NCBI GenBank assembly: GCA_035575515.1
Contig: DATLXU010000079.1
Span: 1 to 64,000 of the forward strand
DNA length: 64,000 nt
Reading direction: 5' to 3'
DNA from: Blastocatellia bacterium
GTDB lineage: Bacteria > Acidobacteriota > Blastocatellia > UBA7656
Shown one piece after another: positions 168 through 51,147 of this stretch (position 1 is the first letter of the stretch; the number at the start of each line of letters is the position of its first letter). The notes under the pieces are model-generated. The model was not told where the DNA came from and searched no databases. It saw only the letters and a list, made by a program, of their open reading frames with translations. Both the position numbers and the translations under genes were made by a program.

Positions 168-375
168 ATATCGCGTTTCAGATTGGGGGCAGAGCAGGCA
201 AAGGCGGGAACTCGTTCGGAGTTCTTCAGATGGATCGCCGGTTTTTTGGCTTGCGCGTTGAGAAGTAGGGTTTGAGCCATTGTTCAGCGAAGAAGGTTTT
301 GCGTTCCTCACGTTAATCAAAGACGAAATGAAACTAGCGGGCAATTAATGCGTTCATAATTGTCCGAAGGTAATA

Positions 376-446
376 ACAGGCAAGCCGGGCCCGTACTTGG
401 CAGGTCGAAGTCTGTCTTGTCTTCAACACAACAGCTACGAAAGGAG
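376..446 (+). promoter_or_regulatory. Structured 5' leader motif, copy A: stem 378-384/416-422, conserved loop cttggcaggtcgaagt, then caacacaaca..aaggag RBS
   Basis: 24/24 nt identity with 2932-2955 and a similar flanking stem. It ends in the SD aaggag 7 nt before the ATG at 453. Confidence 0.4.
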
Positions 447-452
447 CTTGAA

Positions 453-1229
453 ATGAAAAGCAGAAAGGTTCGATTTGCGTCTCTATTTACAGGTATGGCG
501 TTTCTTCTGACAGCATTTGCTCCATTCGGAACGCAGCACGCGATGCTGCCGCCCGACCCTGAAGGTGAGTCCACAGTCGCATACACGATGATAAACACTA
601 GCGGCGATCCGTCAGGAGTAGTTTCTGCCGCCTATGTTCTGGATGATACATCCGTGGTTTTCAATGTAGAACTCACCTTTACTACGGATCAGACAGCAAC
701 GTACAGAATAGACGGCAACCTTGACACTAATACCTATACGATCACTACACTCAGTTCCAGCACAATAACTCCTACAGACCTTCCGCCAATCTACGGAGCA
801 TCAATAGCAGTTTACACTGTAAAGAACGAGAGTGGAAAAATACAAAACGGCACTATAGATGTCCTGAGATGGCGAAGAACTGGGAGTGCAGTTGGCTGGG
901 TTTGTTACAGGGATGGTTTCGAGACGTACCCAACCTCTGTCACAGGAGGGCTGACTTGGCAGATACTAAGAGGGGCGGAAGATCCGCCGTACACAACCAA
1001 CCCGTACAACACTGACGTTTACAATGACGCATGGGGCAAGTACAAGAACTATGACTTCGGGGACCCAAATCTGTCTACGGTTGCTGTTCACTACATCAAG
1101 TTAGGACATAAAAATAGCGACCCTGACAACGTTCCTACAGGCGCAATCTCCGTAAAGTTAAAGAATGAAGGGAAGCGCGACTTCCACTTTGAGTACGAAA
1201 CAAACAAGCATCTTTGCGCTGTTCCGTAA
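453..1229 (+). CDS. secreted hypothetical protein (Ser/Thr/Asn-rich)
   Basis: ATG at 453 preceded by aaggag. N-terminal signal peptide MKSRKVRFASLFTGMAFLLTAFAPFG. The track ORF 360..1229 trimmed to the RBS-supported start. Confidence 0.6.
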   Translation: MKSRKVRFASLFTGMAFLLTAFAPFGTQHAMLPPDPEGESTVAYTMINTSGDPSGVVSAAYVLDDTSVVFNVELTFTTDQTATYRIDGNLDTNTYTITTLSSSTITPTDLPPIYGASIAVYTVKNESGKIQNGTIDVLRWRRTGSAVGWVCYRDGFETYPTSVTGGLTWQILRGAEDPPYTTNPYNTDVYNDAWGKYKNYDFGDPNLSTVAVHYIKLGHKNSDPDNVPTGAISVKLKNEGKRDFHFEYETNKHLCAVP

Positions 1230-1237
1230 GCCATAAC

Positions 1238-1281
1238 AGCCGTCGCGCCAAAGCTAAAGGTCTTGGCGCGACGGTTTTCAC
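1238..1281 (+). terminator. rho-independent terminator
   Basis: GC stem cagccgtcgcgccaa / ttggcgcgacgg followed by TTTTCA, immediately after the stop of 453..1229. Confidence 0.65.
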
Positions 1282-1309
1282 TCGACTCGGTTTGTTTGGA
1301 GGTTAGATT

Positions 1310-2875
1310 ATGTCTTTCTACAAAAGTGTAATAATCAATGCTCTTTGGTCGGCAGCCGTGTTGTTGTCAGCAATGGCAACCGTACTAGCAGGCCAACGCG
1401 AAATCCGCTTCCCCATAACCGATGGCGCTATCATCGCATCTCCCGATGAAATCGGGTTCCTTTATGATAGAGAAATCGGATTTGCTTATGGCTTCGAGCT
1501 TTCGCCCAATCAATTGCCTAATAGGTTATATTCGTTCTCTGTAGCTGAGAGTAAAGTGCTTGAGGAGTTCAATCTATCTGCCGAGTTTGGGTCGGGAATA
1601 GCGCATTTGAAATTCAACGCCCATGCTGATACGGGACTCATAGCAATTGCTTCTTTTGTTGCAGGCCGCCAGAAACTGCTTGTACTGAAGTTAGATGGAT
1701 CAGGGCATTTCTCTAAGTTATGGGCCATCGCCTTTCCTACTTCTGCTGGCGGATTCCCTTCGGCAATTTTCAACGAAGACGGAACGAAGATTTACGCATT
1801 CTACAAAGATGCGAAGCCAAGACTCGCCATGATTAATGCCGAAGATGGAACCATACTTGCCGCAACCGATTTGCCAACCGATTTTCCTGACACGACTGTC
1901 GAAGCGTTGCTGCTGTTTGACAGAACAGCTAAACGACCTATTGTGATGACCGACGACGACGTGCACATATTTGCGCCTGAGTCCGAGGGATTCCGAATCG
2001 AATGGAGCAGCCCCACCCCTGTGGGAACTCTTGCGGGAAACGGTATTACCATTAGCGAAGATGGGCGATTCCTGTTTGGATACACCGGCTCTGCGGTACA
2101 TATCGATCCACCCTTAAGCACGAATAACTTTCTGGCTCTTGACCTCAAGACCAAAGAGTTTCATCAGATCCTTCTTAAGAGCAAGCTGGCGCCATCTAGC
2201 AGCGCGGTGGCTTTCCATCTGCCTTCGGGCAGTATATTCGTGCCTTATTCAGGTAAAATCAAAATCAAAAAAAGCGGATTTGAGTTTGTTGGCAAAGGGA
2301 GCAACAAGCTCGACATCCTGCAGCTAGGCGCGGATGGTCAGATCACGCAGGTGACTCAATTAATCTTCCCTGCAGGCGGTGCTGATAGCAATCTCGCTAA
2401 CTTCATAAGCCCCCATAACAACATCGCGCTTTCCGAAACAGGCGCGATTGGCTTCATATCCTCGCTCACTCTCAAGCGCATTTTTGCCTTTGACACGATG
2501 ACCGGCGAGGTCGTTAACGAAATACCTGTGCCGGATGCTCCAACATTTATCTACCGACCGGAAGGGCACGACTTGATTGTTTACGCCAACGGGACAAATA
2601 AGCTTGTGGTTCTTGATATAGACCCCAAGCCTGTCATCAGCGAAATCAAAGTGAGCAAAAAGCGCACAATGATTCGTGGCGCGAATTTCCTCTCAGGCGC
2701 TCGCGTCGAGGTCAACGGCGAAGACTTAGGCATTGCAGACCGCAACCACGATAATCCCGGTCACGAAATCACGATCAATCGAGGCAAGAAAGATTTCCCT
2801 GCGGGGCAGGATGTTACTATCGTCATCACGAACCGCGACGGGCTTAGCTCAAAGCCGTTCACGTTCAGGCGATGA
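1310..2875 (+). CDS. secreted hypothetical protein, beta-propeller-like body with a C-terminal IPT/TIG-like domain
   Basis: ggagg RBS at 1296-1300. Signal peptide MSFYKSVIINALWSAAVLLSAMATVLAG. C-terminus has a bacterial Ig-like pattern (EVNGEDLG...VTIVITNRDG). Confidence 0.6.
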   Translation: MSFYKSVIINALWSAAVLLSAMATVLAGQREIRFPITDGAIIASPDEIGFLYDREIGFAYGFELSPNQLPNRLYSFSVAESKVLEEFNLSAEFGSGIAHLKFNAHADTGLIAIASFVAGRQKLLVLKLDGSGHFSKLWAIAFPTSAGGFPSAIFNEDGTKIYAFYKDAKPRLAMINAEDGTILAATDLPTDFPDTTVEALLLFDRTAKRPIVMTDDDVHIFAPESEGFRIEWSSPTPVGTLAGNGITISEDGRFLFGYTGSAVHIDPPLSTNNFLALDLKTKEFHQILLKSKLAPSSSAVAFHLPSGSIFVPYSGKIKIKKSGFEFVGKGSNKLDILQLGADGQITQVTQLIFPAGGADSNLANFISPHNNIALSETGAIGFISSLTLKRIFAFDTMTGEVVNEIPVPDAPTFIYRPEGHDLIVYANGTNKLVVLDIDPKPVISEIKVSKKRTMIRGANFLSGARVEVNGEDLGIADRNHDNPGHEITINRGKKDFPAGQDVTIVITNRDGLSSKPFTFRR

Positions 2876-43897: not shown

Positions 43898-45955
43898 ATG
43901 AGCTTCCTCACACGACCTCAGGTTATTATTATCATCTTATTGACGGCGCCTCTTCGCATAATCTCTTCCACAGTGCACGCGTCTCAGCCAGACCGCGACG
44001 CTAATGGCGCAACATCAAAATACCTTTACCACTCATGGACGGTTGAGAATGGTCTGCCGCAAAACTCCGTCAATGACATCGTGCAGACTCGCGACGGCTA
44101 CATCTGGCTGGCCACTTATGGCGGCCTCGTCCGATTTGATGGCGTCAAGTTCACGGTCTTTGATACGGGCAACAGCCGCGGGCTGATGAGCAACAGGGTT
44201 GTCGCGCTGCTTGAGGACCGGGCTGGCAATCTATGGATTGGCACCGAACAAGGCGGCCTGAGCCGCTACGCGCATGGCGCATTCACCACCTTCACGGTGA
44301 AGGATGGACTGCCGGATGATCGCCTTCGCTCTGTGGGCGAGGATGATTCAGGCGCAATATGGGTCAGCACGCCCGCCGGACTGGCGCGTTATAAAGACGG
44401 GCGATTTACTACTTATACAAAGCAGGATGGAATTGCAGGCCTGCCCGGTCAGATAAGGCGTGGTCGCGACGGCAGCCTGTGGGTATTTACTGATCGAGGG
44501 ATAGTCAGGTTTCAGGGCGAGACATTTACCGTTTACGAAACGATGGGCGGGTTGCCCGTGAGCTGGATTCGCGATATGTACTGCGCTAGTGACGGCAGCC
44601 TGTGGGTCTCTGCGGCTAAAGGGCTGATAAGATTCCAATCCGATACGGCTTCTACGCTCATAACCTATGAACTGAGGGAGGGCACATCACCGCCGTCCAA
44701 CATGGTCATGTCTATTTTTGAAGACCTGCAAGGTCGAGCCTGCTTCCTTAGCCCTCAGGGGCTGCTGCGATATGAAGGCGGCGAGATAAAGCTATTCGCA
44801 AATATTACAAAGCCGTTTCAGGCCGAAGAAGTCGTGGCGCGGGTTGAGAATCAGTTGAATATCTCGCGCCTGCAAAAGGAGCTTGCCGAGCAGAACCGGG
44901 AACTCAAGAGGGAGAACGACGAGCTTGTTCAGGCGCAGAAGCGGACCGACCTTGTATTTTCAGCATTGGCCGAGTTGTTGCCAGGCACGGTGCTCGATGA
45001 GAAGTATCGCCTTGAAGAAAAGATCGGTTCAGGCGGGTTCGGCGCTGTGTATCGCGGCACGCACATAAGCTTGAACCGCCCGATTGCGGTCAAGGTATTT
45101 CGACCTATGGCGGGAAACGACAGACCGGAGGCGCTCGAACGATTCCGGCTCGAAGGCGTATCGGCAAGTCGAATAAACCATCCGAATGCTGTTGCCGTGC
45201 TCGATTCAGGCATCACCTCGGCAGGCATCGCATATCTAGTGATGGAGCTTTTAGAAGGGCACACGCTCACAGAAGAATTGAGGGCTAAGGGGAGACTATC
45301 GCTGCGGCGCGCTCTTGAGATACTTGCCCCCGTTTGCGAAGCGCTCGCCGAAGCGCACGCAGTCGGCATCATCCACCGTGACATCAAGCCCGACAATATT
45401 TTTCTCCACCGCGCGAAAGACGGCGAAGTCGTAAAGGTGGTAGATTTCGGCCTTGCGAAGATACTTGGCACAGGTCCAAGCGTGGGGCTTGAGGCGATGA
45501 CAATTGCAGGCGCAGTCATCGGCACACCGACTTATATGGCTCCCGAGCGCCTGGCGAATCAGCCTTACGACGGTCGGGCTGACATATACAGCCTCGGAGT
45601 GATTCTGTACAGGATGCTGACCGGGCGGCTGCCATTTGAGCCTCAAGAAGGCGATGCTTACGCTGTGATGGTGATGCATTTGACTGAGGAGCCGCCTCCG
45701 CCTCGCCAGATCAATCCGAACATTCCTGAAGTCGTCGAGTCAATTATCAAACTCACCTTGAAGAAGCAGCCCGGCGAACGCCCAACTGCGAAAGAGATGT
45801 CAGCCATGATCGGCTCTCTATGCGCGTCTCTTGATGAGATTGAACCAACATCAGAAAACGGCTTGACCGGAAAGCTCACAAACAAAGCCCCTCGGTTAGA
45901 GAGCGACCCTTCGATAGAAGACGTAATGACTCGTCAGTTGCCCGCGCCCGAATAA
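43898..45955 (+). CDS. Hanks-type Ser/Thr protein kinase with N-terminal two-component-regulator propeller repeats and a receiver-like remnant
   Basis: Propeller repeats (WLATYGGLVRFDG, LWIGTEQGGLSRY, IWVSTPAGLARY...). Remnant KPFQAEEVVARVENQL. Kinase motifs GSGGFGAVYRG, VAVK, HRDIKPDNIFL, DFGLAK, GTPTYMAPE. Confidence 0.8.
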   Translation: MSFLTRPQVIIIILLTAPLRIISSTVHASQPDRDANGATSKYLYHSWTVENGLPQNSVNDIVQTRDGYIWLATYGGLVRFDGVKFTVFDTGNSRGLMSNRVVALLEDRAGNLWIGTEQGGLSRYAHGAFTTFTVKDGLPDDRLRSVGEDDSGAIWVSTPAGLARYKDGRFTTYTKQDGIAGLPGQIRRGRDGSLWVFTDRGIVRFQGETFTVYETMGGLPVSWIRDMYCASDGSLWVSAAKGLIRFQSDTASTLITYELREGTSPPSNMVMSIFEDLQGRACFLSPQGLLRYEGGEIKLFANITKPFQAEEVVARVENQLNISRLQKELAEQNRELKRENDELVQAQKRTDLVFSALAELLPGTVLDEKYRLEEKIGSGGFGAVYRGTHISLNRPIAVKVFRPMAGNDRPEALERFRLEGVSASRINHPNAVAVLDSGITSAGIAYLVMELLEGHTLTEELRAKGRLSLRRALEILAPVCEALAEAHAVGIIHRDIKPDNIFLHRAKDGEVVKVVDFGLAKILGTGPSVGLEAMTIAGAVIGTPTYMAPERLANQPYDGRADIYSLGVILYRMLTGRLPFEPQEGDAYAVMVMHLTEEPPPPRQINPNIPEVVESIIKLTLKKQPGERPTAKEMSAMIGSLCASLDEIEPTSENGLTGKLTNKAPRLESDPSIEDVMTRQLPAPE

Positions 45956-46216
45956 TTAGTCGCATATCGCGCTTCCAGGAAAGAGCAATGACATCAACTT
46001 TCTTTGCAGAATATAAATGCTGACTACCTCTGTAATCCCGTGCGCCTCTATGGCTCTTCGATAATGCAACTGCATACGCTAACGAAATTCAGCGAAAAAG
46101 TGTTAATATAGCTGCTCGCAAGGAGTATATAGCACGAGCCAAAAGTTGAATCCTCTAATCTGAACAATGGCTTTTCGCAAGTTGGTTGAGCGCAGCTAAA
46201 GATGAAGTGAGGTCTT

Positions 46217-46657
46217 ATGTTTGCGAAAGAAATACTCGATCAGCAGTCTAACGACAAGGACGATTTGTATTTTCAGTCGGCGCTTAATCCATTGAATGAC
46301 GAACGAAAACTTGAAGCGGCGCTCGAAAAAATAGGTCGTGTTCCCAAGGGCTTCGACGGTAAACTGTTTTTGCCTCTTCTGAGCCGTTCTTCTCCAGCCG
46401 TTCGCTTATTGGCAGTGAAGAATATCGGCAAGCTCAAGGATGAATCGTTTCTGGATAAAGTTAGTTGCCTGGCGAAAACTGAAAGCAATACCCTTGTCCG
46501 TCGAGAGGCAGTTTCGGCTATCGGGCGCATGAGAAGCAGATATGCCGTTCCAGTATTAATCAGCTTCCTTCATGACAATGATGCCAAAGTGGTCCTGCAG
46601 GCTATTCAGGGCGCTTCTCGTTTTCAAAACTCTGCCGAAGGTGCAGGAATCGCTTAA
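46217..46657 (+). CDS. HEAT (PBS-lyase-type) repeat protein fragment; continues in another frame into the MTase
   Basis: Repeats AVRLLAVKNIGKL, LVRREAVSAIGRM, AKVVLQAIQGASRF. Low-GC DNA. Confidence 0.45.
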   Translation: MFAKEILDQQSNDKDDLYFQSALNPLNDERKLEAALEKIGRVPKGFDGKLFLPLLSRSSPAVRLLAVKNIGKLKDESFLDKVSCLAKTESNTLVRREAVSAIGRMRSRYAVPVLISFLHDNDAKVVLQAIQGASRFQNSAEGAGIA

Positions 46658-47602
46658 AGCTCTCACCGATCACCCTAGTGAACTGGTACGAGAAGCCATT
46701 GAGAAAGAGTTTGGTCCGAAGACCAGCGGGAGAGCTAAAAACCCCTCTCACACATCAAGCCCAAATTTTTTGAAGAACGTCCTCGTTCACGGCGATGTGC
46801 GCGAAGTCCTAAGCATGTGCCTGACGAATCAGTTCATTTAACATTCACATCGCCTCCCTACTACAACGCGCGGGATTATACGATATACAAGAGCTATGAG
46901 CATTATCTGGAATTCCTGGTTTCGATTTTCAAAGAGGTTCATCGCATTACGAAAGAAGGGCGATTCTTTGTTTTGAATACGTCCCCAGTGCTTATTCCGC
47001 GCATGGGCCGAAGCCACGCCAGCAAACGGTACCTGATTCCTTTCGATATACATCCTTTGCTGACTCGGATAGGATGGGAGTTCATTGAAGATATTATCTG
47101 GGTGAAGCCTGACCCGAGCGCAAAGAATCGCAATGGCGGCTTCTTTCAACATAGAAAGCCACTTGGCTATAAGGCCAATTCAGTTTCTGAGTACGTCATC
47201 GTTTATCGCAAAAAGACAGACAGGCTGATTGATTGGAATATGCGGCAGTATCCCGAAGAGATAATTAATGAGAGCAAAGTCGCCGGTGATTATGAGAAGA
47301 CAAATGTCTGGAAGATAGCCCCAACGACTGACAGGATTCATTCCGCTCCATTCCCAAAAGAGCTGGCCGCGCGAGTTGTTCAGTTTTACTCATTCAAAGG
47401 CGACCTAGTGTTTGATCCTTTTGCCGGGATAGGCACCGTTGGGCAGGCCGCTTTAATGTTAGGCAGGCATTTCTTTATGACTGAGCAGGAGAAGCAATAC
47501 GTCAATAGAGCAACCGCAGCTTTGCACGAACAGCGAACGTTTTTTTCGGATGCAGTCAGAACCTGCTCTTTGGATGAGTTCAAGCAGGAAACAATTAGAT
47601 AA
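46572..47602 (+). pseudogene. beta-class DNA methyltransferase (SPPY type, likely N4-cytosine or N6-adenine), frameshifted; the N-terminal part is in a different frame and follows a HEAT-like segment
   Basis: Frame A (46572-46841): ..LPKVQESLKALTDHPSELVREAIEKEF..NFLKNVLVHGDVREVLSMCL. Frame B (46817-47602): PDESVHLTFTSPPYYNARDY ... VFDPFAGIGTVGQAAL (motif IV before motif I). The junction at ~46818-46822 is a -1 shift in a C-run. Confidence 0.55.
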
Positions 47603-47789
47603 ATTAAAAGTTCAGTGGGTCGAATTGCGGAGCGAGAAAGGGTATAAAAAGTTCGAGAAGATTCTGCGCGCCCTCTCAATTCCTTATAAATCATTCAAAG
47701 GCGACCTGAGCAAAGCTTTGAATGACATTTTGTCTGAGATTTCTGATGAAGAAGTCCAGGAGATGGCCACAGAAAATGCGGGGGTATAG
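47574..47789 (+). CDS. small hypothetical ORF downstream of and overlapping the MTase 3' end
   Basis: ORF only; no recognisable motif. Confidence 0.2.
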   Translation: MSSSRKQLDKLKVQWVELRSEKGYKKFEKILRALSIPYKSFKGDLSKALNDILSEISDEEVQEMATENAGV

Positions 47790-47797
47790 CAATCTTA

Positions 47798-48664
47798 TCA
47801 CTGCAACCCCGTGCGCGCCTCTGCGGCTTCGCGCTTGCGCCGCTCAAGTTCCGCAACGCGCCGCGCGATGTTCTCCCGCTCGCTCGCGTCCTTAATCTCT
47901 CTGAGTGTCTTTATCGCTTCATCGAACTGGTACAATCCCGCGTAGCAGTCGGCTATGCCGTACATCGCGCGGCGGCGCGCTTCTTCATCGTTGCTTTCAG
48001 CAGCGAGCTTTTGATAGACCGCAAGCGATGATTGATATTGCCCGCGCGCGTTGTAGACAGCCGCTTCGCGCATCAACGCCTGCTCGGTCAGATCGTCATA
48101 AGCCGCGCCCGTGATTACTTTCTCATATTCGGTTAGCGCCTGGCTGTAGTTGTTTTGATCGTAATAAAGATCGGCAATGCGCAATCGTATGCGGCGGCGC
48201 TCGGTCGCGTCCTGCGGATTCAGATTCTCGTACTCGGCTATCGCTTCGTAGGTGCGGCCAAGCTCGCCAAGTAACTCGGCCACGCGCTCGCGCGCAAGGT
48301 TGGCATTCGCGCCCGCAGGATCTTGCCTCAATAGCTCCCTGTAGTGCGCGATGGCTTGATCGTATTGTTTAAGATTGAAGTTGTATATATTGGCGAGTTG
48401 AAACCGCGCCAATAGTGACTCTGCGCCTGTCGGGAATCGTTCAAGATATTTCTCGTACTCTTCGGCGGCGACGCTGTACTCTTTCGCGTCCCACGCCTCA
48501 GCCGCGCGCTTCAAAGACGGCTCCGAGTTATTCCGACAGCCCGCCAGCGGCACTAGCGACAGGATTAGCAGCAAATAAAACAACGCAGAGATGCGGCGAA
48601 GGGGCGACGCGGCGATATAATCACCTGAATGCAACGATGACCCAAGCCCGATCAAATCCTTCAC
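47798..48664 (-). CDS. TPR-repeat lipoprotein (BamD/YfiO-like architecture)
   Basis: LAGC lipobox after a hydrophobic leader; about six TPR units (AIAHYRELL, ALTEYEKVI, AIKTLREI). Confidence 0.55.
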   Translation of the reverse strand: MKDLIGLGSSLHSGDYIAASPLRRISALFYLLLILSLVPLAGCRNNSEPSLKRAAEAWDAKEYSVAAEEYEKYLERFPTGAESLLARFQLANIYNFNLKQYDQAIAHYRELLRQDPAGANANLARERVAELLGELGRTYEAIAEYENLNPQDATERRRIRLRIADLYYDQNNYSQALTEYEKVITGAAYDDLTEQALMREAAVYNARGQYQSSLAVYQKLAAESNDEEARRRAMYGIADCYAGLYQFDEAIKTLREIKDASERENIARRVAELERRKREAAEARTGLQ

Positions 48665-48693
48665 CGCGTCTCCGTGTCCCCGCGTCCCCGCTA

Positions 48694-51147
<2,454 letters not shown>

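What the first reader, a model, noticed from the sequence alone, without database searches (positions are those of the whole stretch)
45956..47797. Low-GC island: HEAT-repeat domain joined to an SPPY DNA methyltransferase through two compensating frameshifts
The AT-rich ~1.8-kb + strand segment lies between core genes. A HEAT/PBS-lyase repeat ORF continues in the +1 frame (LPKVQESLKALTDHPSELVREAIEKEF), then straight into an MTase N-terminus (NFLKNVLVHGDVREVL). It then drops back by -1 at a C-run into the MTase body (PDESVHLTFTSPPYY ... FDPFAGIGTVG). No restriction endonuclease gene follows, only a 71-aa ORF. It is either a decayed RM remnant, a slippage-controlled (phase-variable) MTase, or a genuine HEAT-MTase fusion mis-sequenced at two homopolymers.
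Basis: seen in the sequence. Interest (0 to 1): 0.65.

Follow-up and report, generated by a model that had tools for sequence, protein, structure and literature searches.

The report
Decayed CfrBI-like restriction-modification gene cassette
This low-GC island is the wreck of a two-gene restriction-modification system: most of the restriction enzyme gene is deleted and the methyltransferase gene carries two real single-base frameshifts, an ordinary case of a bacterial defence system decaying.

Summary
A HEAT-repeat reading frame shifts +1 at about 46605, runs into a methyltransferase N-terminus, and shifts back -1 at 46817 into the methyltransferase body. Removing one T and restoring one G gives a 461-aa protein. 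It aligns without gaps, at 60-70% identity, to more than 100 intact HEAT + N6_N4_Mtase proteins of about 465 aa, so the fusion is a genuine, widespread architecture.

In intact relatives a 330-aa CfrBI-family restriction endonuclease follows directly (3 of 3 loci examined first; 55 of 65 metagenome loci). In the window only its C-terminal ~67 residues remain, inside the "71-aa ORF". About 0.73 kb, including the predicted PD-ExK catalytic core, is deleted.

Fourteen other contigs of the same Blastocatellia population carry the island at the same site. The -1 lesion is in all 13 contigs that cover it. The extra T is in 7 of 15. Two contigs carry a further 301-bp repeat-mediated deletion that removes the AdoMet-binding motif. 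The lesions are therefore real mutations, not sequencing errors. Neither sits in a repeat tract, so this is not phase variation.

Verdict: a stepwise-decaying type II R-M cassette of a known kind. Low interest. The HEAT-bearing branch of M.CfrBI relatives appears unstudied.

The parts
45956..46216 (.). AT-rich non-coding leader of the island, between the kinase stop codon and the HEAT-MTase start. It contains a possible relic copy (46025-46060) of the 3' end of the neighbouring TPR gene.
   Evidence: No ORF with homology and no sigma-70-like promoter match. The 36-nt repeat is 72% identical to 47796-47831. For that pair of regions p is about 0.006, but equal scores occur elsewhere in the window, so the evidence is weak.
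46217..46604 (+). HEAT-repeat N-terminal domain of the methyltransferase pseudogene (frame 2), up to lesion 1.
   Evidence: Pfam HEAT_2 E 1.8e-22. Gap-free alignment to intact relatives.
46605..46606 (+). Lesion 1: one extra T (TT where sister contigs have T), giving a +1 frameshift. It is polymorphic in the population.
   Evidence: Present in 7 of 15 contigs (window, L010-L015) and absent in 8 (L004-L009, L016, L017). Where it is absent the ORF is 207 aa and reads AIRALL like the family consensus.
46607..46816 (+). Middle segment, readable only in frame 3: the last HEAT repeat, the linker, and the first strand and helix of the methyltransferase core (NFLKNVLVHGDVREVLSM).
   Evidence: Frame 2 has five stop codons here, while frame 3 is open and homologous. 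In the AlphaFold model of intact homolog P0001, strand 188-191 and helix 194-198 belong to the core. This stretch also aligns to the plasmid M.CfrBI-type enzyme, which has no HEAT domain.
46815..46819 (+). Lesion 2: ATGTG where the family alignment calls for one more base. The simplest repair is ATGGTG (S-M-V-P-D-E). It gives a -1 frameshift and is fixed in the population.
   Evidence: Identical in all 13 contigs that cover it.
46817..47602 (+). Methyltransferase body (frame 2, 261-aa ORF from GTG). It holds motif IV SPPY at 46850-46861 and motif I FDPFAGIGT at 47411-47437. Its last codons (about 47582-47602) are read from endonuclease-derived DNA.
   Evidence: Pfam PF01555. PADLOC MTase_II PDLC03246, E 2.9e-88. 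The intact homolog P0001 is 54% identical to the plasmid CfrBI-type methyltransferase.
47570..47585 (+). Junction of the ~0.73-kb deletion that joined the 3' end of the methyltransferase gene to codon ~243 of the restriction endonuclease gene.
   Evidence: Methyltransferase homology ends near SLDEF (47567-47581). Endonuclease homology starts at 47580 in frame 3. The junction is the same in the window, L008, L012 and L016.
47580..47789 (+). C-terminal remnant (residues ~243-318 of 330) of a CfrBI-family type II restriction endonuclease, inside ORF 47550-47789.
   Evidence: tblastn E 4e-17, 2e-16 and 2e-15 against the endonucleases of L003, L001 and L002. Those enzymes hit Pfam PF09516 over residues 8-248, all of which is missing here.
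47390..47406 (+). First copy of the 17-nt direct repeat TCATTCAAAGGCGACCT, in the methyltransferase gene just upstream of motif I.
   Evidence: repeat family D2. The 301-bp deletion in L004 and L010 runs between the two copies.
47691..47707 (+). Second copy of the 17-nt direct repeat, in the endonuclease remnant.
   Evidence: The deletion allele encodes the 223-aa product P0128.

Best explanation
The island is a dead, horizontally acquired type II restriction-modification cassette of the CfrBI family. When intact it was a two-gene operon. The first gene encoded a ~465-aa methyltransferase: an N-terminal HEAT-repeat domain fused to a beta-class SPPY core, predicted to make N4-methylcytosine. 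The second, immediately downstream or overlapping, encoded a 330-aa CfrBI-family endonuclease. The methyltransferase protected host DNA and the endonuclease cut unmethylated incoming DNA.

In this Blastocatellia lineage the decay went in steps. A ~0.73-kb deletion removed the first ~242 codons of the endonuclease, including its predicted PD-ExK core. That removed the need for protection, and the methyltransferase gene then lost one base at 46817. More recently, and only in part of the population, it gained a T at 46605 or lost 301 bp between two 17-nt direct repeats.

What is shown: the lesions, their distribution across contigs, the homology and the gene linkage. What is inferred: that the endonuclease was lost before the methyltransferase (from the established lethality of losing M while R is active), the target sequence (CCWWGG-like), the modified base, and the absence of any residual activity.
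For: 1. The repaired protein aligns gap-free with intact 455-487-aa HEAT_2 + N6_N4_Mtase proteins at 60-70% identity, E down to 3.7e-217.
2. A PF09516 endonuclease follows the gene in L001, L002 and L003. It also follows in 55 of the 65 metagenome loci that have at least 1 kb downstream.
3. Window 47580-47780 encodes only residues ~243-318 of that endonuclease.
4. The window comes from a Blastocatellia metagenome-assembled genome. Fourteen other contigs, from several samples and at least three sources (NCBI, Logan, ENA), carry the island at the same site at 98.4-99.9% nucleotide identity.
5. Lesion 2 is in 13 of 13 contigs that cover it. Lesion 1 is in 7 of 15. A 301-bp deletion that removes motif I is in L004 and L010.
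6. There is no tandem repeat in the island.
7. The core of the intact homolog P0001 (residues 185-429) is 54% identical (E 3e-93) to the 376-aa methyltransferase that sits next to an annotated 'CfrBI family restriction endonuclease' on small enterobacterial plasmids.
8. CfrBI recognises CCWWGG and M.CfrBI makes N4-methylcytosine (PMC6556831).
9. The repaired protein departs from the family at 8 of 178 columns that are at least 95% conserved, against a mean of 1.7 for 119 relatives.
10. Other family members show similar endonuclease decay with the methyltransferase intact: L073 (frameshift), L081 (C-terminal remnant) and L129 (N-terminal remnant).
Against: 1. No methylation or expression data exist, so residual activity of the 261-aa core ORF, or of a two-piece enzyme, is not formally excluded.
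2. The protein sequence is still well preserved and the population SNPs split 5 synonymous to 5 non-synonymous. That fits recent inactivation but cannot prove neutrality.
3. Lesion 1 and the 301-bp deletion each occur on both haplotype backgrounds. This needs recombination, recurrence or chimeric metagenome contigs to explain.
4. No precise empty site was recovered in relatives.
5. No close (>70% identity) intact donor is known.
6. CCWWGG specificity is inferred from family membership only. The endonucleases share a Pfam domain but no BLASTP-level similarity with the plasmid CfrBI-type enzyme.
Confidence: 0.93

Rival explanations
1. The gene is an intact HEAT-MTase fusion and the two frameshifts are sequencing or assembly errors.
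For: The two shifts compensate and the repaired protein is well preserved. The source is a metagenome-assembled genome.
Against: Lesion 2 is identical in 13 of 13 contigs. Lesion 1 recurs in 7 contigs from NCBI, Logan and ENA assemblies of different samples. Neither site is a homopolymer. The partner endonuclease is truncated, and sister contigs carry a further 301-bp deletion.
Confidence: 0.02
2. It is a phase-variable methyltransferase that switches on and off by slippage at the frameshift sites.
For: Lesion 1 is polymorphic in the population and appears on two haplotype backgrounds.
Against: No simple-sequence repeat is present. The sites are TT and a former GG. Lesion 2 is fixed, so neither state of lesion 1 gives a full-length frame.
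Confidence: 0.01
3. Programmed +1 and -1 ribosomal frameshifting makes the full-length protein from the shifted gene.
For: The middle segment stays open and homologous in the shifted frame.
Against: My reading of the sequence finds no X XXY YYZ slippery heptamer and no known +1 shift site at either position. None of 80 metagenome relatives, and none of the top protein hits, needs a shift. Lesion 1 is absent in half the population. A 210-nt open stretch in a young pseudogene is unremarkable.
Confidence: 0.01
4. The remnant still works as an orphan methyltransferase. Either the 261-aa core is translated from GTG 46817, or a two-piece enzyme forms from the 207-aa HEAT-plus-first-strand fragment and the 261-aa core in alleles without lesion 1.
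For: The core ORF keeps motif IV (SPPY) and motif I (FxGxG) and every invariant family residue. Orphan methyltransferases often arise from endonuclease loss: L081 and L129 keep an intact methyltransferase beside an endonuclease remnant.
Against: The core ORF lacks the invariant N-terminal strand and helix (LKNVLVHGDVREVL). These are part of the fold and are conserved even in relatives without HEAT. I see no Shine-Dalgarno-like sequence before GTG 46817. Alleles that delete motif I coexist in the population, which argues against selection for activity.
Confidence: 0.04

Closest known systems
CfrBI / StyI-type type II restriction-modification systems (Citrobacter freundii pZE8; pO26_3-like enterobacterial plasmids)
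   Same: The methyltransferase core and target-recognition region of the intact homolog P0001 is 54% identical (E 3e-93) to the plasmid 376-aa enzyme, and both carry the SPPYYNA motif. The partner endonucleases of the intact relatives hit Pfam PF09516 RE_CfrBI. It is a two-gene type II system.
   Different: The enzyme here has a ~170-aa N-terminal HEAT-repeat domain in place of the unrelated ~110-aa N-terminus of the plasmid enzyme. The genes are co-directional and abut or overlap, rather than being divergent with a shared promoter (and the abstract of bioRxiv 10.64898/2025.12.04.692298 listed). The endonucleases share only profile-level similarity. The window copy is non-functional.
Degraded R-M systems and orphan methyltransferases formed by endonuclease loss (from my own knowledge: widely described, for example in Helicobacter pylori comparative genomics)
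   Same: The endonuclease is disabled first and the methyltransferase then accumulates frameshifts and deletions. The cassette is a low-GC island in a chromosomal site.
   Different: Nothing essential differs. The extra detail here is a population snapshot with one fixed and two segregating lesions.
Phase-variable DNA methyltransferases (phasevarions)
   Same: A frameshift polymorphism sits inside a methyltransferase gene within one population.
   Different: There is no repeat tract, and a second fixed frameshift plus the endonuclease deletion make the switch meaningless.
Beta-class N4/N6 DNA methyltransferases with solved structures (TTHA0409 2ZIE, M.PvuII 1BOO, CcrM 6PBD, rotifer N4CMT 8S9O)
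   Same: The same fold and motif order: motif IV at the N-terminus and motif I at the C-terminus. Sequence and Foldseek matches run from residue ~183-189 onwards.
   Different: None of these solved chains carries a HEAT domain. The HEAT part matches only designed alphaRep repeat proteins.

Membership tests
Type II R-M system, CfrBI family | A DNA methyltransferase of the N6_N4 (PF01555) beta class that is homologous to M.CfrBI-type enzymes | tested here: met
   PF01555 E 2.3e-39. PADLOC MTase_II E 2.9e-88. The intact homolog P0001 is 54% identical to the methyltransferase paired with an annotated CfrBI-family endonuclease on pO26_3. The reading frame is broken twice.
Type II R-M system, CfrBI family | An adjacent restriction endonuclease with the PF09516 RE_CfrBI domain | tested here: not met
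   It is present in intact relatives. In the window only residues ~243-318 survive, which lie outside the Pfam domain (residues 8-248). The window therefore holds a remnant of such a system, not a working member.
Type II R-M system, CfrBI family | Recognition of CCWWGG with N4-methylcytosine modification | not testable with these tools
   The SPPY motif IV and the homology to M.CfrBI-type enzymes are consistent with N4-methylcytosine. CCWWGG is depleted in the window (10 observed against 34 expected), but control motifs such as GGWWCC and CGWWCG are depleted too, so this says nothing specific.
Pseudogene / decayed gene cassette | The reading frame is disrupted relative to intact homologs, and the disruptions are real rather than artefacts | tested here: met
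   Two frameshifts are located by gap-free alignment. They recur in independent assemblies. A further 301-bp deletion allele exists, and the partner gene is truncated.
Phase-variable methyltransferase (phasevarion) | A simple-sequence repeat tract in the ORF whose length changes switch the frame on and off | tested here: not met
   Tandem Repeats Finder finds nothing in 45900-47900. The sites are TT and ATGTG. No observed allele is in frame.
Programmed ribosomal frameshift gene | A conserved slippery site, with the shift conserved in homologs | tested here: not met
   All 80 metagenome relatives are covered by a single-frame tblastn match, and the top 120 protein hits are mostly 455-500 aa and carry both domains in one protein. 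I read no slippery heptamer at either site.
Mobile R-M unit inserted with target duplication | Direct repeats of target sequence flanking the cassette | tested here: inconclusive
   A 36-nt repeat at 72% identity sits at both island edges, with the right copy lying on the TPR gene stop codon. For that pair p is about 0.006, but equally good matches occur elsewhere in the window. No empty site was found in relatives.

The most novel reading that the evidence does not exclude
The remnant may not be fully dead. In alleles without the extra T, the 207-aa HEAT-plus-first-strand fragment and the 261-aa core could reassemble into an active orphan N4-cytosine methyltransferase. The segregating T insertion and the 301-bp deletion would then create epigenetic heterogeneity in the population. 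Separately, the intact relatives define an unstudied HEAT-bearing branch of M.CfrBI-like enzymes whose HEAT domain may have a role of its own, for example DNA or endonuclease docking, or control of expression timing.
Probability: 0.05. Interest if true: 0.4.

Novelty: already known. Interest (0 to 1): 0.18.

Why it matters
For the genome it matters little. It is a defunct defence cassette and should be annotated as a methyltransferase pseudogene plus an endonuclease fragment, not as three separate genes, which is how the public record names them (HEAT repeat protein, site-specific DNA-methyltransferase).

It has two modest points of value. First, fifteen contigs capture R-M decay in progress within one natural soil population: the endonuclease deletion (in every contig that covers the junction) and one frameshift are fixed, while one frameshift and one repeat-mediated deletion are still segregating. 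Second, it draws attention to a large, highly conserved group of HEAT-domain methyltransferases paired with CfrBI-family endonucleases (well over 100 full-length members among the database hits; the 12 aligned share 73% mean column identity). I found no literature on them in two full-text searches. No solved structure combines the two domains.

Tried and rejected
1. Sequencing error: rejected, because the lesions recur in independent assemblies.
2. Phase variation: rejected.
3. The downstream small ORF as an independent gene. Pfam gave only a sub-threshold OLD-like TOPRIM hit (E 0.007), while tblastn shows it is the endonuclease tail. The 301-bp deletion allele removes half of it, which argues against a retained function.
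4. CCWWGG avoidance as evidence of specificity. It is depleted, but not more than control motifs, and many 6-bp palindromes are near zero. Uninformative.
5. Search for an empty site. Seven Blastocatellia relatives keep gyrA-TPR but have neither the kinase nor the island next to it. No precise empty site was found.
6. Flanking 36-nt repeat as a target duplication: only weakly supported.
7. tblastn of the endonuclease against plasmids found nothing. The link to classical CfrBI came through the methyltransferase instead.
8. Two calls to paper reading failed on term length.
9. NCBIfam gave no match above its curated cut-offs for the methyltransferase and no hit at all for the endonuclease.
10. Relaxed-selection tests are suggestive but underpowered.
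Full report
**What is in the sequence**

On the + strand three ORFs tile the island: 46217-46657 (frame 2), 46572-46841 (frame 3) and 46817-47602 (frame 2). Frame 2 has five stop codons between 46655 and 46745, while frame 3 is open there. Island GC is 0.459 against 0.556 for the window, below every 1842-bp window sampled at 100-base steps. Pfam finds HEAT_2 (E 1.8e-22) and N6_N4_Mtase (E 2.3e-39) in the repaired protein. The observation therefore stands.

**Locating the lesions**

A 461-aa protein made by dropping one base near 46605 and adding one near 46817 finds intact proteins of mostly 455-500 aa. All carry HEAT_2 + PF01555, at 58-72% identity, with E down to 3.7e-217. It aligns with eleven of them without any gap through both junctions: AIQ/RALLVFKTLP against the consensus AIRALLxFKxLP, and EVLSM-PDESVHL against EVLKxVPDESIHL. 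The HEAT-methyltransferase fusion is thus a genuine and common architecture, and this copy is broken twice.

Comparison with sister contigs shows that lesion 1 is an extra T (GCTATCAGG to GCTATTCAGG, 46605/46606). Lesion 2 is a missing base, most simply one G of ATGGTG (now ATGTG, 46815-46819). Neither is a homopolymer or a C-run, and Tandem Repeats Finder reports nothing in the island.

**The missing partner**

In three relatives examined with their context (L001, L002, L003), the methyltransferase gene is followed at once, abutting or overlapping, by a 330-aa protein. That protein hits Pfam PF09516 RE_CfrBI (E 7e-16 to 8e-25, residues 8-248) and PADLOC REase_II (E 1.8e-79).

I also fetched 80 metagenome loci, each with the methyltransferase covered by a single-frame match. 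Sixty-five of them have at least 1 kb downstream:

| Downstream of the methyltransferase | Loci |
|---|---|
| Full endonuclease | 55 |
| Frameshifted endonuclease (L073) | 1 |
| Endonuclease remnant only (L081, L129) | 2 |
| None | 7 |

In the window, tblastn with those endonucleases hits only 47580-47780, at 49-52% identity and E 4e-17 to 2e-15, and covers only their residues ~243-318. About 0.73 kb is gone, including the D...EVK stretch that I read as the PD-ExK core (L001 residues ~198-214). The junction at ~47570-47585 fuses the last codons of the methyltransferase gene to endonuclease DNA.

**Are the lesions real?**

Exact look-up shows that the window's proteins belong to a metagenome-assembled genome labelled Blastocatellia bacterium (HXG92908-HXG92911, contig of 102,685 bp). 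The same clusters also hold 207-aa and 223-aa variants.

Fourteen further contigs carry the island between the same kinase and TPR/gyrA genes, at 98.4-99.9% nucleotide identity. They come from NCBI assemblies GCA_0370244xx/5xx, from Logan assemblies of SRR246776xx and SRR7882662, and from ENA ERZ23501286. Their states are:

| Feature | Contigs |
|---|---|
| Lesion 2 | 13 of the 13 that cover it |
| Lesion 1 (extra T) | 7 of 15. The other 8 read AIRALL and have a 207-aa ORF that ends at lesion 2 |
| Endonuclease deletion junction | Identical in the 4 that cover it |
| Extra 301-bp deletion | L004 and L010 |

The 301-bp deletion runs exactly between two 17-nt direct repeats (TCATTCAAAGGCGACCT at 47390-47406 and 47691-47707). 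It removes motif I (FDPFAGIGT). L005 has an N-filled scaffold gap, not a deletion.

These facts exclude sequencing error. They also exclude phase variation, because no observed allele is in frame. They show stepwise decay: the endonuclease deletion and lesion 2 are old and fixed, while lesion 1 and the 301-bp deletion are young and still segregating. Both young lesions occur on both haplotype backgrounds. I attribute that to recombination, recurrence (plausible for a repeat-mediated deletion) or chimeric metagenome consensus, and I cannot tell which.

**Degree of decay**

The repaired protein keeps every column that is invariant among the twelve aligned sequences. It departs from the family at 8 of 178 columns that are at least 95% conserved, against a mean of 1.7 (median 1) for 119 relatives; only 4 relatives are as deviant. 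Ten population SNPs in the coding parts split 5 synonymous to 5 non-synonymous. Both results fit recent relaxation of constraint, but both are underpowered.

**Could the pieces still work?**

An AlphaFold model of the intact relative P0001 (pLDDT 82) places the HEAT helices at residues 29-169 and a low-confidence linker after them. The methyltransferase core begins with strand 188-191 and helix 194-198. Solved beta-class enzymes align from residues ~183-189 onwards. The plasmid M.CfrBI-type enzyme, which has no HEAT domain, aligns from residue 185. The 261-aa ORF that starts at GTG 46817 (about residue 201) therefore lacks a conserved core strand and helix. Together with the coexisting motif-I deletion alleles, this makes residual activity unlikely, at about 4-5%. 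It has not been tested.

**Comparison with known systems**

Small mobilizable enterobacterial plasmids such as E. coli O26:H11 pO26_3 carry an annotated "CfrBI family restriction endonuclease" (355 aa). It is transcribed divergently from a 376-aa methyltransferase. This matches the published CfrBI system: CCWWGG recognition, N4-methylcytosine, M about 42 kDa, R about 40 kDa, plasmid pZE8 (PMC6556831).

That methyltransferase is 54% identical (E 3e-93) to P0001 over residues 185-429, the whole catalytic and target-recognition core, and it carries the same SPPYYNA motif. Its first 110 residues have no Pfam domain and no similarity to the HEAT region. The two endonucleases share PF09516 but no BLASTP-level similarity.

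So the window's cassette belongs to the CfrBI family in a branch that differs in two ways: it has a HEAT N-terminal domain, and its genes are arranged co-directionally as M then R. Two full-text searches found no paper on HEAT-bearing DNA methyltransferases. No solved structure combines the two domains.

**Origin of the island**

Seven more distant Blastocatellia genomes keep gyrA-TPR but have neither the kinase nor the island beside it, so no precise empty site was recovered. A 36-nt imperfect repeat (72% identity) sits at both island edges, with the right copy lying on the TPR gene stop codon. This would fit insertion with target duplication. It is only weakly significant, however: p is about 0.006 for that pair of regions, and equal scores occur elsewhere in the window.

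CCWWGG is depleted in the window (10 observed against 34 expected). GGWWCC, CGWWCG and CAWWTG are similarly depleted, and several 6-bp palindromes are nearly absent, so this says nothing specific about the cassette's target.

**Verdict**

This is a decayed CfrBI-like type II restriction-modification cassette, a known kind of object, well supported (confidence 0.93) and of low interest. The third is right about the fusion and wrong about mis-sequencing.

Noticed in passing
window 47390-47406 and 47691-47707; L004, L010: A 17-nt exact direct repeat (TCATTCAAAGGCGACCT) encodes SFKGDL in both the methyltransferase and the endonuclease tail. It is the substrate of a 301-bp deletion seen in two sister contigs. 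Many metagenome contigs of this population break at 47377, probably because of this variant and the G/A SNP at 47378.
   Followed up: yes
window 46025-46060 and 47796-47831: An imperfect 36-nt direct repeat (72% identity) lies at the two edges of the island. The right copy is the 3' end and stop codon of the TPR gene. It may be a relic of a target duplication, but the statistics are weak.
   Followed up: partly
whole window: Many 6-bp palindromes are strongly avoided. Observed against expected under a first-order Markov model: CAGCTG 0 vs 20, GAGCTC 0 vs 28, CTCGAG 1 vs 28, ATCGAT 1 vs 29, CGGCCG 2 vs 39, GGATCC 0 vs 14. This suggests a long history of exposure to many R-M systems.
   Followed up: partly
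L081:5356-5487; L129:5374-5469; L073:3570-4537: Independent relatives keep an intact HEAT-methyltransferase next to a decayed endonuclease: a C-terminal remnant (residues 255-298) in L081, a 32-aa N-terminal remnant in L129, and a frameshifted endonuclease in L073. Loss of the endonuclease first therefore recurs in this family.
   Followed up: partly
L002:5219-6007: In one complete 6.66-Mb genome contig, a TIR-domain gene (PF10137 CAP12-PCTIR_TIR) overlaps the start of the HEAT-methyltransferase gene. This suggests a defence-island context.
   Followed up: no
window 360-2875: A second low-GC stretch (GC about 0.475-0.49 in 1.8-kb windows) holds two ORFs of 289 and 521 aa. From their N-termini they look like secreted proteins of unknown function.
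   Followed up: no
window 46217-47602 (public annotation HXG92909.1, HXG92910.1): The public record annotates the pseudogene pieces as two separate proteins ('HEAT repeat domain-containing protein', 146 aa, and 'site-specific DNA-methyltransferase', 261 aa). They should be flagged as one frameshifted pseudogene.
   Followed up: yes
window 48415-49614 and 49615-50862 (+ strand): Two long ORFs (399 and 415 aa) lie antisense to gyrA (48694-51147, - strand). They are probably artefacts of GC-rich antisense sequence, not genes.
   Followed up: no
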